Notes under the pieces: generated by a model
Told to the model about the DNA's origin: nothing
What the model saw: only the letters and a program-made list of their open reading frames with translations
Database searches by the model: none
Part shown: piece by piece, positions 27,629-32,359 of the stretch
How the letters are laid out: each line of letters starts with the position of its first letter
Numbering within the stretch: the stretch's first letter is position 1
Made by a program: the position numbers and the translations under genes
Source of the DNA: a virus
Lineage: Duplodnaviria > Caudoviricetes
DNA: 64,000 nucleotides
Direction: 5' to 3' (one strand)
Virus record (IMG/VR): IMGVR_UViG_3300033121_001553
Coordinates: 122,820-186,819 of that record

Positions 27629-28236
27629 GCCCATATAACGAATCTTACTACACTCAAAAAAACTACATTAGCTATCTTGAACGACGAGAACGTTACACAA
27701 GAATGATAAATGAGCTCAACGATAGACTAATAAAGCCACTTGCGCTCGATAAGTTCTTGAAGCATGGTACGATCGTCGACTATGGCTGCGGCGTTGGATT
27801 TTCAACAAAAGCTCTTATTGAAATCGGTTACAAGGCTATTGGCTACGATCCTTCTGTGTGGGCTGTGGAATGGGGTAAAAAAAATCTTGGTCTCAAGGGT
27901 ACAGAGATAACAGATAAAAAAAATGAGATTCCTGGTCATTGTTCACTTATGCTTTCATTCGACGTATTTGAGCACATGTCCAGCGACGAAATAGCTGATA
28001 CATTGGCGTACTTTTCGCCGATATACTTGCTTGTTCGCATACCTCTTGCAAATACCGACAACGGAGATTATGTTCTGAGTGTATCAGAAAATGATCCAAC
28101 GCATATTATGCGTCTAACGCGTAGCTCGTGGAATCTTCTGCTACGTGAATGTAGATACGAATGGCTCTACGACGTAAATCTTACAATGTTTTACGATAGC
28201 GACGGTGTAATGTGTTCAATGTACAGAAAATATTTA
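27625..28236 (+). CDS. class I SAM-dependent methyltransferase
   Basis: VDYGCGVG, FDVFEH, DPTHI; ends KY-TTA-AAG-TGA (standard end 28242). Confidence 0.88.
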
Positions 28237-28256
28237 AAGTGATGCAAGAGGTAAAA

Positions 28257-29330
28257 ATGTCGAACGTCAAACCATCTATTGCTGTTATTGGTCAAGGCTT
28301 TGTCGGAGGTTCTCTTGCGACTGTTTTCGCTGAACGTGGATTCGATGTCTACGTTTACGATATCGCAGGAAAGTCAGCACCTGGCGCAGTAGAAAAAAAG
28401 TTCAATTCTGTACATGAGCTTGTAACAGCTTGTATCGCTACACCAGGTTTTAGCGGCGTTTATTTTCTTTGCGTTCCGACTCCAATGAATGTAGATGGCA
28501 GTGCAGATCTCAGCATTGTACAGTCAGCGCTTTACGAAGTTGTAGCATCGAATAAGCATCGTGCAGACGTCTGTAAGACTGTTGTTATCAAGTCAACGAT
28601 ACCGCCCGGAACAACAGAAACATTTAATCGTGATCTTGAAGTCACAAATACAAAAGTAGTCTTTAGCCCAGAATTTCTGACAGAAGCTAACGCGCTTGAC
28701 GATATGAGAGAACAGTCAAGAATTATTCTTGGTGGACCGCGACCGTATATCAATACTGTAAAACAAGTATTTTTGAAGGCTTTTCCAACACGTCCAATTA
28801 TTAAAACAAATAGCACAACTGCTGAAATGGTAAAATATTTCACCAATATACAGCTCGCCGCAAGAGTTGTATTGAGTTGTGAACTTGCTGAGATTTGTGA
28901 GTTGCTCGATAAGCGCGGATACAACATCGACTACGATAAGGTTCTAGAGTATGCGAAGTACGATGAGAGACTAGGTAATAGTCATATGAATGTCCCAGGA
29001 AATGATGGAATTCCTGGTGCACGTGGCCACTGCGTAATTGCTGGTACAGTTGTTAAAATGCGTAATGACGTAAACGGTAAAAATGTAGAAAATTTGAAAG
29101 CACTAGATGAAATTGATAGCTGCGATGCGTTGCTTACGCAGAATGAATCGAAATATGTAAAATCAGCATCAATGCGAAAATACAATGGTATGGTTTATAC
29201 ATTTGTCGTTGGCGATAAACGTGTAACATGCACACCAGAGCATATACTGCCAGTATATAGAGACGGTAAGATCGTTCTATCACGCGCCGAAGACATTACA
29301 ACATCTGATGAACTATTTGTTGCAGAATGA
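28257..29330 (+). CDS. ugd: UDP-glucose 6-dehydrogenase N-extein plus split intein N-half
   Basis: GQGFVG, CVPTP, IKSTIPPG, FSPEFL, AEMVKY, GARGH; then intein block A (CVIAGT) and block B (TCTPEH). Confidence 0.92.
   Translation: MSNVKPSIAVIGQGFVGGSLATVFAERGFDVYVYDIAGKSAPGAVEKKFNSVHELVTACIATPGFSGVYFLCVPTPMNVDGSADLSIVQSALYEVVASNKHRADVCKTVVIKSTIPPGTTETFNRDLEVTNTKVVFSPEFLTEANALDDMREQSRIILGGPRPYINTVKQVFLKAFPTRPIIKTNSTTAEMVKYFTNIQLAARVVLSCELAEICELLDKRGYNIDYDKVLEYAKYDERLGNSHMNVPGNDGIPGARGHCVIAGTVVKMRNDVNGKNVENLKALDEIDSCDALLTQNESKYVKSASMRKYNGMVYTFVVGDKRVTCTPEHILPVYRDGKIVLSRAEDITTSDELFVAE
29031..29327 (+). mobile_element. split intein, N-terminal half (99 aa)
   Basis: Starts with Cys1 after GARGH; TxxH motif; ends at TGA with no HN. 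Confidence 0.9.
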
Positions 29331-30049
29331 AAAATTCACAAGTCGAAATTACATGTAAATTCTGTAATACTATTTTCTCTGTTGAATACAAACATAGAAA
29401 AAAAGTATTTTGCAATCGCAAATGCATGAATCTTTATTACAGAGGTGAAAATTCAACCTCGTTTGGTAAAACGTATAGAACAAAAGAAACACATCCAGAA
29501 TGGGCAAAAAAGGTATCAGATACGCATAAGCTGCGTAGAACATTGGTCGATAACAATCCAATGAAAAATCCTGATATTGCAAAAAAAGCAAGCGAAACAA
29601 GAAAAAAACTTTTGCAAGATCCTGCAAAACGTAAAATCATTGCAGATGCAATGAGAAAAGCGTGGGCAGACGGTAAATTTGCAAATGTTAATGTTGGAAA
29701 ATGTAAATGGTTTTCATTCACAAAACGCAACGGTGAAATATGTAAAGTTCAGGGCAAGTGGGAATTGGCTTATGCAAAATGGCTTGACGAAAATCATATC
29801 AACTTCAAAACGCATATTGGAAGATTTCAATATGCGTTTGATGATGGTACGATAAGAAATTACTACCCTGATTTTTATCTTGTTGATGATGATCGTTACG
29901 TTGAAATTAAAAATGCATATCATCATAGCATCAATAAAAATAAAATTGATGCTGTTCGTTCGATGAATCCTAACGTTAGGATTGATCTATTGTTTAAAGA
30001 TGACTTGGTAGAGCTAGGTGTATTCAATGATAACAAAGAAAAAAATTGA
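29327..30049 (+). CDS. free-standing homing endonuclease (Zn-finger/NUMOD-like plus PD-(D/E)XK domain)
   Basis: CKFC..FCNRKC, NNPMK, QGKWE, YYPDFYL..YVEIK; AT-rich; lies between the intein halves. Confidence 0.85.
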   Translation: MKNSQVEITCKFCNTIFSVEYKHRKKVFCNRKCMNLYYRGENSTSFGKTYRTKETHPEWAKKVSDTHKLRRTLVDNNPMKNPDIAKKASETRKKLLQDPAKRKIIADAMRKAWADGKFANVNVGKCKWFSFTKRNGEICKVQGKWELAYAKWLDENHINFKTHIGRFQYAFDDGTIRNYYPDFYLVDDDRYVEIKNAYHHSINKNKIDAVRSMNPNVRIDLLFKDDLVELGVFNDNKEKN

Positions 30050-30161
30050 AAAAATTTTGATAGAAAATTATGTTGGTGATGTTTACAACATAGAAGTTGT
30101 ATCAAATGATGACGCAAATGATGATCTGTACTGGATTTGCAACGGTATCGTTGTGCATAAC
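30027..30161 (+). mobile_element. split intein, C-terminal half (45 aa)
   Basis: Blocks F/G ending His-Asn, followed by Cys+1. Confidence 0.9.
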
Positions 30162-30320
30162 TGCTTTCCCAAAGACCTTAATGCGCTTATCGCAAAAGCA
30201 AAAGAAGTTGGCCATAGCGCAAAATTGCTAAGTGCAATAAATGAACGTAATCTTGAAATTGTAAAACCTGAGCATCGTGACTGGGAACGTATGCTTGGTA
30301 GAGCAGTCACAAAAAAATAA
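30027..30320 (+). CDS. ugd: split intein C-half plus UDP-glucose dehydrogenase C-extein
   Basis: AGGTG SD; VYNIEV..NGIVVHN followed by CFPKDLNAL (catalytic Cys motif). Confidence 0.92.
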   Translation: MITKKKIEKILIENYVGDVYNIEVVSNDDANDDLYWICNGIVVHNCFPKDLNALIAKAKEVGHSAKLLSAINERNLEIVKPEHRDWERMLGRAVTKK

Positions 30321-30689
30321 CTTATCTATCTCGTTCATAAATGATTTCGCAATTTGTTGAGGGGAAAGTTCGAATAGTTCTACTTCATCAAATTGCGAAA
30401 TGTATCTCATAAGATCGTTTACGTTGAATGACTTACCTGACTTACTAAGGTAATTTCTTACTTGAACGAATTTATTTCTTTTTGGATCATTTCCGCGAAG
30501 ATTGATTTCTTCTTCATCTGCTTCTATATTTGCAGCGCTGTGAGCCCAACCGATTGGTTTTCTACCGTAACTTGGTGGCAGCATTGTTGCTTTTGATGGT
30601 GGAACAGTTGGGTCATCTGATGCTTCCATATAAAGCTGGACGTATTCTTTGATAAGCCTTCTGATTTTTGCTTTGTCATTTGTAAACAT
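30318..30689 (-). CDS. hypothetical protein (RRLIKE motif, possible internal head protein)
   Basis: GAGG SD; its TTA is the exact complement of the ugd TAA (standard end 30228). Confidence 0.7.
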
Positions 30690-30801: not shown

Positions 30802-31113
30802 ATGAAAAAGTATGAATATTTGTATGCGTATGCTAGAAATTTGATTAGAGCAGAACTACGTGGTATTGAATTGACTGCAAAGTCAATAAAACGACGTAAA
30901 GCAAAAAAAGATTTGTTGCTCTCATGCCGTGCTAGGAATTTGATTCTTGCTCGAGCATTTTTGCTTGGTAAGAATTATTTGCAAGCAGAACGTAAAGCAA
31001 AAATCTCTCCAGTCCCTGAGGAAATATCAAAAACGATTAGAAGCTATTTCCCGAATGCTGTAATGTGTCCAACAAGCGAAGAGATACGGCAATGGATGAA
31101 AAGCTGTATATTA
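30802..31113 (+). CDS. basic hypothetical protein
   Basis: GGAGG SD; LARAFLLGKNYLQAE; TTA 31111-31113 (standard end 31248). Confidence 0.7.
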
Positions 31114-31406
31114 TCGTTCGTAAGGATCTGCCATACGGCGCGCAGTTTGCTCAAGCGATACACGCTGTTGCAGAATTTGCAATTGAGCATAACGATCTTT
31201 ATCGCGAATGGCATTCGACAACAAATACAGTTGTTGTGCTTAGCGTAAAAGATGAAACAGAATTGTTGAAAATTCAACAGCTTTCTATTGAAAATGGAAT
31301 CGCGCATTCTCTTTTTAGAGAACCAGACTACTCTGGTTCTGCGACTTCAATTGCGTTGAAATCAAAGAAAATAAAATTTCTAAACAGACTCAAGCTCGCA
31401 AATTTA
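31092..31406 (+). CDS. peptidyl-tRNA hydrolase, Pth2-like
   Basis: LYIIVRKDL..GAQFAQAIHA..TVVVL..FREPD..TSIAL; ends TTA-TGA. Confidence 0.82.
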
Positions 31407-31417
31407 TGAGTCTGATA

Positions 31418-31488
31418 GCGTCATTTGCGTAGTGGCAACGCAGTTGATTCTAAATCGACTTACGCGGGTTCGATTCCCGCATGACGCA
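31418..31488 (+). tRNA. tRNA with CTA anticodon (amber suppressor type)
   Basis: Acceptor GCGTCAT/ATGACGC, D-arm GCGT/ACGC, anticodon arm GTTGA-TT CTA AA-TCGAC, T-arm GCGGG TTCGATT CCCGC; short variable loop. Confidence 0.88.
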
Positions 31489-31490
31489 CG

Positions 31491-31949
31491 ATGAACTACA
31501 TCGAACTAATTGTTGGCGATCCATTTAAACGTGGTCATGCGATGAAGTCAACTGTTCGTGTTGAATGCACGCAAGATGCATTCGCTGTCTCGTCTGCATA
31601 TAAAGAAGGATGCGCAGTAGTGGGATTCGATATAACAGAAGAATACAGTTCAGATGACTCGAACGAAGTTATATCTGAAGAGCGCGTTGAAATACTCAAG
31701 TCGATAGATTTTGCTGGCGTTATCTTTCACGATAAAGATGGATTGTATCGACTGTCACCACGCAGTTACGCAGAAATTTATATGTTTATCGCTAACATCG
31801 GAGACAGTAGCATAAAGTACAAAGTTCTGAATGATCCTGACTACAAACTTGAAATTGGCGGTTACGGAATTTTTAACAAAGTAGCACGTCAAGAAAATGT
31901 AGAAGTTGAATTCAAAGATCCAGAACGATCGAAAAAACGTAACAAATGA
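31491..31949 (+). CDS. hypothetical protein
   Basis: 152-aa ORF; GDPFKRGH and IGGYGIF motifs. Confidence 0.72.
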   Translation: MNYIELIVGDPFKRGHAMKSTVRVECTQDAFAVSSAYKEGCAVVGFDITEEYSSDDSNEVISEERVEILKSIDFAGVIFHDKDGLYRLSPRSYAEIYMFIANIGDSSIKYKVLNDPDYKLEIGGYGIFNKVARQENVEVEFKDPERSKKRNK

Positions 31950-32110: not shown

Positions 32111-32359
32111 GTGAATTGGACCGTTAGCGACAATTACGCAAAAGCAGCTGTTGCTGCGTGTAAAGCTACTCCTGATGCTGTTGAATCGATACTACGAGAA
32201 AAACACGGCGGTTGGAGTAGACTGATAGCGAAGATGCAAAAAGAGAATCAAGAGCTAACATGCGTTGCTAGCTGTTGGATGGCCATTCGCGATGTTATAG
32301 AAGAAATCAAACGAATAAAGGCGATGAATGCAACAACAGACAACGGAAAAAAAACTTAG
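32111..32359 (+). CDS. hypothetical protein
   Basis: In-frame GTG two codons after the TTA; helical composition; TAG stop. Confidence 0.45.
   Translation: MNWTVSDNYAKAAVAACKATPDAVESILREKHGGWSRLIAKMQKENQELTCVASCWMAIRDVIEEIKRIKAMNATTDNGKKT

What the first reader, a model, noticed from the sequence alone, without database searches (positions are those of the whole stretch)
30802..31488. Translation-termination locus: Pth2-like hydrolase next to an amber (CUA) tRNA, in a genome that barely uses TAG
Seen: a basic ORF and a Pth2-like ORF (both TTA-ended) followed 11 nt later by a well-formed tRNA with anticodon CTA, away from the main tRNA arrays. My manual stop tally is about 37 TGA, 24 TTA, 13 TAA and 2 TAG (both doubtful small ORFs), and no gene is interrupted by TAG. 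Inference: TAG has been vacated while TTA was recruited as a stop. The tRNA could read through host TAG stops or decode TAG elsewhere in the genome, and Pth2 could recycle peptidyl-tRNA dropped at UUA. The charged amino acid is unclear (short variable arm, A73).
Basis: partly seen in the sequence, partly recalled or inferred. Interest (0 to 1): 0.82.

Follow-up and report, generated by a model that had tools for sequence, protein, structure and literature searches.

The report
Phage amber tRNA beside Pth2-like gene
A large uncultured phage carries a stop-codon-reading tRNA right behind a small tRNA-hydrolase-like gene, a pairing that turns out to be conserved in dozens of distant phages, and although this phage also seems to use TTA as a fourth stop codon, the gene pair is not what explains that.

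Summary
A Pth2-fold gene (31092-31409) is followed 8-11 nt later by an intact tRNA with anticodon CUA (31418-31489).

TTA does behave as a stop. It is about tenfold depleted in frame. It piles up just before standard stops, and it sits where nine capsid homologues have their stop.

The proposed link between the locus and TTA fails. The Pth2-like plus stop-reading-tRNA pair is a widespread phage module: 60 of 80 IMG/VR loci, cluster C mycobacteriophages and Lak megaphages. All sampled carriers use TTA normally, including a relative from the same capsid clade.

This scan found the module before on other DNA, as an "amber-gated Pth2". I confirmed an early in-frame TAG in 64 of 80 homologues. This copy has no such TAG, so it is an ungated variant.

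TAG is rare as a stop (about 3% versus 13% in the relative) but not vacated. What the tRNA reads here, and which amino acid it carries (weakly Lys-like), remain open.

The parts
30802..31113 (+). ORF1, a basic 103-aa protein of unknown function. It ends at in-frame TTA 31111-31113; the standard-code stop comes only at 31246-31248.
   Evidence: No Pfam or PHROG match and no Atlas lead. One homologue (36% identity, E 1e-4) lies 1 kb upstream of the Pth2-like gene in L183; it ends about 8 residues beyond the position of the TTA.
31092..31409 (+). Pth2-like hydrolase gene of 104-105 aa, ending TTA-TGA. It has no in-frame TAG, so it is ungated.
   Evidence: PF01981 E 9e-12; phrog_1866 E 1e-19; AF2 pLDDT 94 with the Pth2 fold at TM 0.75-0.78. 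The family keeps Q21, H24 and E77-P78-D79 invariant, but the GK lysine of archaeal Pth2 is missing.
31418..31489 (+). tRNA with anticodon CUA (31450-31452): class I, A73, no encoded CCA.
   Evidence: All four near-identical strains keep it. Their only difference (31445 T>C) turns a G-U pair of the anticodon stem into G-C.
31491..31949 (+). Downstream ORF3 (152 aa, unknown function), starting 2 nt after the tRNA on the same strand.
   Evidence: no family match.
32111..32359 (+). The only credible TAG-terminated ORF of the window (TAG 32357-32359), about 870 nt downstream of the tRNA. Reading through the TAG adds 18 codons that do not look coding.

Best explanation
The locus is one copy of a widespread two-gene phage module. 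The module pairs a small Pth2-fold hydrolase (phrog_1866 family) with a stop-codon-reading tRNA on the same strand.

Shown here: both genes are intact. The tRNA is under structural selection. The pair sits at the head of a rightward gene block next to sugar-modification genes.

Inferred: a host synthetase charges the tRNA (its features are weakly Lys-like), and it inserts an amino acid at UAG. The hydrolase cleaves the ester bond of peptidyl- or N-blocked aminoacyl-tRNA. It thereby either clears by-products of suppression or limits suppression.

In about four fifths of homologous loci the hydrolase mRNA carries UAG at about codon 2-5, so the enzyme is made only when the tRNA overrides that stop. 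In this phage that gate is absent, and the hydrolase can be translated without the tRNA.

The phage also ends about a third of its genes at TTA. That trait is independent of the module.
For: Module:
- 60 of 80 IMG/VR loci with a homologue have a stop-reading tRNA within 3 kb, always on the same strand. CUA accounts for 61 of about 215 nearby tRNAs; the next most common anticodon appears 16 times.
- The same order, Pth2-like then tRNA(CUA), occurs in cultured Bixzunavirus and Myrnavirus phages, with different flanking genes.
- Lak megaphages have a tRNA(UUA) about 600 nt upstream of their homologue.
- The tRNAs have varied acceptor stems and discriminator bases, so the pairing is not one inherited tRNA.

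Gate:
- 64 of 80 homologues have an early in-frame TAG. The gate goes with a nearby CUA tRNA (45/8 versus 3/11, Fisher p = 1.4e-5).
- This copy has none.

Independence from TTA:
- Module-bearing loci with GC below 45% use in-frame TTA at 12-77 per 1000 codons.
- G005 has a capsid 65% identical to this phage's. It has an ungated Pth2-like gene plus tRNA(UUA), and TTA at 9.7 per 1000 codons, evenly spread along its ORFs.

tRNA under selection:
- A G-U to G-C change in the anticodon stem across strains.

Lys-like features:
- The best match among the phage's own 11 tRNAs is tRNA-Lys(CUU).
- The acceptor and anticodon stems resemble E. coli tRNA-Lys; that comparison is from my memory.
Against: - No in-frame TAG target was found in the 187 kb held, so what the tRNA reads in this phage is unknown.
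- Back-up stops after the few TAG stops are no closer than after TGA or TAA (p = 0.39), so nothing here shows that TAG is leaky.
- The hydrolase lacks the GK lysine of characterised Pth2 enzymes, so its activity and substrate are inferred only.
- The relative G005 carries an ochre-type suppressor yet ends 30% of its genes at TAA. Carrying such a tRNA therefore does not by itself force avoidance of its codon.
- The record is only about 52% complete by CheckV.
Confidence: 0.7

Rival explanations
1. One reading: the locus is part of a rewired termination system. UUA has become a stop, UAG has lost efficient release and is read by the tRNA(CUA), and the Pth2-like enzyme frees chains or recycles peptidyl-tRNA that drops off at UUA.
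For: - TTA behaves as a stop.
- TAG stops fall to about 3%, against 13% in G005.
- The Pth2-like gene is ungated here, so it could be made constitutively.
- No release-factor domain was found in the fragment, so some other mechanism is needed.
Against: - The same module is common in phages with normal TTA use, and none of the 80 module loci shows TTA depletion at low GC.
- G005 is also ungated and has normal TTA use.
- Anticodon CUA cannot pair with UUA.
- From established knowledge, drop-off is efficient only for very short nascent chains. Pth2 acts on free peptidyl-tRNA, so it cannot explain release of a 629-aa capsid protein.
Confidence: 0.1
2. The tRNA serves in-frame TAG codons (gates or recoded genes) that lie in the roughly half of the genome not in this record.
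For: - CheckV completeness is 52%.
- In most carriers the tRNA has a conserved TAG target.
- The tRNA is under structural selection although no target is visible here.
Against: The capsid, portal, terminase, baseplate and tail genes are all in the fragment held. These are the class usually recoded in TAG-recoded phages, and none carries an in-frame TAG.
Confidence: 0.25
3. The tRNA is a decaying leftover of a formerly gated module and no longer functions.
For: The gate is missing, and no TAG target is visible.
Against: - The cloverleaf is canonical, at 62 bits.
- It is kept in five strains that differ at 0.5-1.4% of positions.
- The one change in it preserves base pairing.
Confidence: 0.05

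Closest known systems
Amber-gated Pth2-like gene plus suppressor-tRNA module of large phages
   Same: Same protein family (phrog_1866, Pth2 fold). A stop-reading tRNA on the same strand within tens of bases. Host genomes are large phages with tRNA sets.
   Different: The Pth2-like ORF has no early in-frame TAG here, so the defining translational gate is absent. The host phage also ends genes at TTA.
Cluster C mycobacteriophages (Bixzunavirus and Myrnavirus, e.g. NoodleTree, Bread, ScoobyDoobyDoo, Myrna): annotated 'peptidyl tRNA hydrolase' followed by 'tRNA-Pyl/OTHER'
   Same: Identical gene order and orientation. The protein is 40-45% identical, and the tRNA has anticodon CUA.
   Different: There the pair sits inside a roughly 30-tRNA array, and a TAG codon lies directly before the annotated start (ATG-TAG-GTG or GTG-TAG-GTG). 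Here the pair stands alone and has no TAG.
Stop-codon-recoded phages (code 15, TAG read as Gln; Lak and crAss-like phages)
   Same: A phage-encoded suppressor tRNA. Lak phages also carry a Pth2-like homologue near a suppressor tRNA.
   Different: No in-frame TAG in any gene of the 187 kb. TAG is a rare stop here, not a sense codon.
Archaeal and eukaryotic Pth2 (PF01981; M. jannaschii MJ0051, human Bit1/PTRH2)
   Same: Same fold, and the Q..HA motif is shared.
   Different: The GK lysine is missing, the loop after the acidic motif is shorter, and E-P-D is invariant where Pth2 has D-A-G. The substrate is unknown.
NCBI genetic code table 23 (Thraustochytrium mitochondria, TTA = stop)
   Same: TTA is absent from gene bodies and sits at gene ends.
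   Different: That code belongs to a mitochondrial genome. I found no report of TTA as a stop in a phage or bacterium.

Membership tests
Pth2 peptidyl-tRNA hydrolase (PF01981) | Matches the family profile above the curated cut-off | tested here: met
   45.7 bits against a cut-off of 23
Pth2 peptidyl-tRNA hydrolase (PF01981) | Pth2 alpha/beta fold | tested here: met
   AF2 pLDDT 94; Foldseek TM 0.75-0.78 to 2zv3, 1wn2, 1q7s and 1xty
Pth2 peptidyl-tRNA hydrolase (PF01981) | Catalytic residues of characterised enzymes (the Lys of the GK motif and the Asp of the D-A-G motif; recalled from the literature) | tested here: inconclusive
   The Lys position is deleted. An invariant E-P-D replaces D-A-G. 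Q21 and H24 are kept.
Pth2 peptidyl-tRNA hydrolase (PF01981) | Hydrolyses peptidyl-tRNA | not testable with these tools
   Needs an enzyme assay
Amber suppressor tRNA | Canonical cloverleaf with CUA at positions 34-36 of a 7-nt loop, U33 and a purine at 37 | tested here: met
Amber suppressor tRNA | Is aminoacylated and inserts an amino acid at UAG | not testable with these tools
tRNA-Pyl (ARAGORN's label) | Pyl-type architecture: 6-bp anticodon stem, 3-nt variable loop, small D-loop without G18G19 (recalled from the literature) | tested here: not met
   5-bp anticodon stem, 4-nt variable loop, and G18G19 and TTCGA present. The label reflects only the anticodon.
Amber-gated Pth2-like plus suppressor-tRNA module | phrog_1866-type gene with a stop-reading tRNA on the same strand within 3 kb | tested here: met
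   8 nt apart, counted from the TGA; 60 of 80 homologous loci share the layout
Amber-gated Pth2-like plus suppressor-tRNA module | In-frame TAG within the first few codons of the Pth2-like ORF | tested here: not met
   No TAG in or upstream of the ORF in frame; 64 of 80 homologues have one
TAG-recoded phage (code 15) | In-frame TAG inside conserved genes | tested here: not met
   Coding coverage is 0.939 under the standard code and 0.936 with TAG as sense. Extensions beyond TAG stops do not look coding.
Genome with TTA as a stop codon | TTA missing from gene bodies, and found at positions homologous to stops in relatives | tested here: met
   a second lineage, L021
Genome with TTA as a stop codon | A factor that releases the chain at UUA | tested here: inconclusive
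   No RF-1 or PCRF domain in the fragment held, but half of the genome and the host are unknown

The most novel reading that the evidence does not exclude
The module and the code change are connected. In cells infected by this phage, termination is rewired so that UUA is released and UAG is not. The tRNA(CUA) has captured the freed UAG, and the normally amber-gated Pth2-like gene lost its gate because UAG no longer terminates. That would make this the first phage caught with both a sense-to-stop and a stop-to-sense shift.
Probability: 0.08. Interest if true: 0.95.

Novelty: new variant of a known kind. Interest (0 to 1): 0.66.

Why it matters
- **Orphan suppressor tRNAs.** Large phages with a normal genetic code often carry suppressor tRNAs with no known target. 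The XacN1 paper says so explicitly (PMC5852040). A conserved partner gene gives this puzzle a concrete handle, and cultured mycobacteriophages make it testable.
- **This copy separates two roles.** The tRNA is kept under selection even though the Pth2-like gene has lost its TAG gate. The tRNA must therefore do more than gate its neighbour.
- **The TTA trait.** The phage is also a strong case for TTA as a fourth stop codon. This report gives comparative evidence for that, and shows that the cause should be sought elsewhere than in this locus.

Tried and rejected
**Searches that found little or nothing**
- Close DNA relatives in the phage collection: none.
- Relatives of the neighbouring nuclease in IMG/VR: none.
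- Exact match to the T-arm and acceptor of the tRNA in IMG/VR: none.
- BLAST of the tRNA against phage records: only weak, mixed hits to Trp, Glu and His tRNAs, so no amino-acid identity could be drawn.
- Word-indexed protein search with the Pth2-like protein: only near-identical strains and one frameshifted copy in an AT-rich phage without a tRNA.
- The three ORFs that precede the Pth2-like gene in this phage, Lak and NoodleTree: no similarity to each other.
- ORF1: no family and no Atlas lead.

**Ideas rejected**
- TAG-TTA tandems as evidence that TAG is leaky. Two of five TAG stops are followed directly by TTA. Overall, though, back-up stops are no closer after TAG than after TGA or TAA (p = 0.39).
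- Early-TAG gates elsewhere in the 187 kb. A few ATG-x-TAG strings lie upstream of genes. They sit in normal intergenic or Shine-Dalgarno sequence and are not convincing.
- Promoter and terminator scans around the locus: no more sites than in shuffled sequence.
- Release-factor domains: none, apart from an 18-bit sub-threshold PCRF hit inside the portal gene.

**Could not be done**
- Contigs from Logan and ENA could not be searched whole.

Full report
**What the record is.** The window is the last 64 kb of a single 186,819-bp IMG/VR virus record with 43% GC, which CheckV rates about 52% complete. It encodes a T4-type large terminase, portal, gp23-like capsid protein, a baseplate J-like protein and a GroEL. 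The capsid is 65-72% identical to those of many uncultured 300-360-kb phages. The nearest cultured phages are distant: Microcystis phage Mel-JY01 and Flavobacterium 'immuto' phages, at 37-49%. The host is unknown.

**The observation.**
- ARAGORN and Rfam both find a tRNA at 31418-31489 (+) with anticodon CUA. It folds as a normal cloverleaf.
- It has a 7-nt anticodon loop with U33 and A37, G18G19, a TTCGA T-loop, a 4-nt variable loop and A73. ARAGORN's label 'tRNA-Pyl' reflects only the anticodon.
- The other 11 tRNAs lie 25 kb away, on the other strand.
- Directly upstream is a 105-codon ORF (31092-31409). It matches Pfam PTH2 and PHROG 1866. Its confident model (pLDDT 94) superposes on archaeal Pth2 and human Bit1.
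- Upstream of that, overlapping it, is a basic ORF from 30802.
- Both ORFs reach an in-frame TTA before a standard stop: ORF1 at 31111-31113, and the Pth2-like gene at 31404-31406, where TGA follows directly.

**TTA as a stop.**
- In a greedy standard-code ORF set (187 ORFs, 58,725 codons), TTA occurs 98 times in frame, against 1451 and 672 times in the other two frames. CTA, ATA and GTA are common.
- 47 of the 98 lie in the last tenth of their ORF, mostly 2-20 codons before the standard stop. Another 18 lie in the first tenth. Six equally rare control codons are spread evenly.
- Many of these TTAs overlap the next gene's ATG as TTATG.
- With TTA added as a stop, the genome resolves into 203 genes: TGA 93, TTA 65, TAA 38, TAG 7.
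- The capsid gene ends ...NMNII-TTA-SIR-stop, and nine homologues all end ...MNII or ...MNVI-stop at that column.
- The scaffold and capsid genes form one 1127-codon standard-code ORF. They are separated only by two TTAs, a GGAGA and an ATG.
- Two strains carry a 2-nt deletion three codons before the TTA of a neighbouring minus-strand gene. Their product is 121 aa. The window's product is 123 aa if TTA stops, and 153 aa by the standard code.
- Relatives of similar GC use TTA normally and evenly: L020 at 13.6 per 1000 codons and G005 at 9.7 per 1000.
- A second lineage, L021 (capsid 68% identical), also ends its scaffold and capsid genes at TTA.
- No release-factor domain is present in the fragment held. 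I found no paper reporting TTA as a stop in a phage.
- I put the odds that TTA terminates translation here at about 85-90%. The mechanism is unknown.

**TAG usage.**
- Seven genes of the model end at TAG, and five of those are credible. Read-through would add 0, 0, 2, 3 and 18 codons that do not look coding.
- TAG is significantly rarer than in the relative G005 (7 of 203 versus 13 of 99, p = 0.003), but it has not been vacated.
- Treating TAG as a sense codon does not improve the gene map.
- A search for early TAG 'gates' found nothing convincing.
- Back-up stops are no closer after TAG than after other stops.

**What the locus is.** The decisive result came from looking at homologues of the Pth2-like protein.
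- In the annotated phage collection it matches 241 records. Of these, 206 are cluster C mycobacteriophages, where it is annotated 'peptidyl tRNA hydrolase', and 15 are Lak megaphages.
- In NoodleTree, Bread (Bixzunavirus) and ScoobyDoobyDoo (Myrnavirus) the gene is immediately followed by a tRNA with anticodon CUA. The order and strand match this window, although the flanking tRNAs differ.
- In Lak-B4 and Lak-A1 a tRNA with anticodon UUA lies about 600 nt upstream.
- I then collected 80 IMG/VR loci with a homologue. Sixty of them hold a stop-reading tRNA within 3 kb, always on the same strand and often within 100 nt. CUA is by far the commonest anticodon nearby, 61 of about 215.
- These tRNAs have varied acceptor stems and discriminator bases. 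Some look Gln-like (U1-A72, G73). The pairing is therefore functional rather than one co-inherited tRNA.

**Earlier notes of this scan.** After these results I consulted the scan's earlier notes. They describe the same pairing on other genomes as an 'amber-gated Pth2', with a TAG among the first codons of the hydrolase gene. I tested that claim.
- 64 of the 80 homologues have M-x(1-4)-TAG just before the conserved KLY...R.DL start.
- The gate goes with a nearby CUA tRNA (Fisher p = 1.4e-5).
- The mycobacteriophages have ATG-TAG-GTG or GTG-TAG-GTG at the annotated start.
- The copy in this window has no TAG in or before the ORF. It belongs to the rare 'tRNA present, gate absent' class (3 of 68 distinct loci).
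- The relative G005, from the same capsid clade, is also ungated. It carries a tRNA(UUA) downstream of its homologue.

**Is the locus tied to TTA?** No.
- Module-bearing loci with GC below 45% use in-frame TTA at 12-77 per 1000 codons.
- G005 uses it at 9.7 per 1000, evenly along its ORFs.
- Anticodon CUA cannot pair with UUA.
- From established knowledge, Pth2 acts on free peptidyl-tRNA, and drop-off is efficient only for very short chains. It cannot explain release of full-length capsid protein.

**State of the tRNA.**
- Four near-identical strains (98.6-99.5% identical) all keep the tRNA.
- Its only difference from them, 31445 T>C, converts a G-U pair of the anticodon stem into G-C.
- Gene bodies in the same 20 kb show 99 synonymous and 23 non-synonymous differences.
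- The tRNA is therefore maintained by selection, although its usual target is missing.
- Among the phage's own tRNAs it is closest to tRNA-Lys(CUU). Its acceptor and anticodon stems resemble E. coli tRNA-Lys as I recall that sequence. Lys is a weak guess, about 40%.

**Literature.** Papers on the jumbo phages XacN1 and Atu_ph07 list suppressor tRNAs and peptidyl-tRNA hydrolases as separate items. The XacN1 paper reports that no target of the CUA tRNAs could be found (PMC5852040, PMC6102473). I found no paper that describes the pairing or the gate.

**Verdict.**
Its central link is wrong: the locus does not explain TTA.
- The locus is an ungated variant of a conserved phage module that this scan has met before.
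- Its function is inferred, not shown.

Noticed in passing
window 28212-30320: The UDP-glucose dehydrogenase gene is 'fractured'. ORF A (28212-29330) carries the NAD domain, part of the central domain and an intein N-part. An endonuclease-like ORF (DUF7487, 29327-30049) lies in another frame. ORF C (30018-30320) carries an intein C-part (...VVHN|C) and the rest of the central domain. This looks like a split intein with a free-standing homing endonuclease.
   Followed up: partly
L021:9830-11980 (IMGVR_UViG_3300033066_001998): A second phage lineage, with a capsid 68% identical, ends its scaffold (...AGLPAK-TTA) and capsid (...LDMNII-TTA) genes at TTA. L069 may do the same. The TTA-stop trait is therefore not confined to one phage.
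   Followed up: partly
L101:2474-2482 and L102:2474-2482: In cultured cluster C mycobacteriophages, the annotated GTG start of the 'peptidyl tRNA hydrolase' is directly preceded by start-TAG (ATG-TAG-GTG or GTG-TAG-GTG). The next gene is the tRNA(CUA), variously annotated tRNA-Pyl, tRNA-OTHER or tRNA-Arg.
   Followed up: partly
L110, L114, L147, L158, L162-L166, L115-L117, L148, L153, L181: Several Pth2-like loci without a CUA tRNA carry odd tRNAs right beside the gene. ARAGORN reports 2-nt or 4-nt 'anticodons' (unusual loop sizes) or A34 anticodons (aat, aaa).
   Followed up: no
L187:19473-19828 (G005, IMGVR_UViG_3300044712_001255): The 324-kb relative with the normal code encodes a tmRNA (tag ANDNATVLRAAA), as well as an ungated Pth2-like gene and a tRNA(UUA).
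   Followed up: no
window 30318-30689 (-) and strains L008, L010: A 2-nt deletion (30329-30330) three codons before the in-frame TTA gives a 121-aa product in two strains. The window's product is 123 aa if TTA stops, and 153 aa by the standard code.
   Followed up: yes
L183:1617-1982: The only detectable homologue of ORF1 (36% identity, E 1e-4) lies 1 kb upstream of the Pth2-like gene of a 437-kb phage. That phage is also ungated and carries two tRNA(CUA) genes.
   Followed up: partly
whole record (codon table): Besides TTA, codons ending in CC (GCC, CCC, TCC, ACC) and GG (CGG, AGG, GGG) are strongly under-used. They are spread evenly along genes, so this is ordinary codon bias and not stop-like behaviour.
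   Followed up: partly
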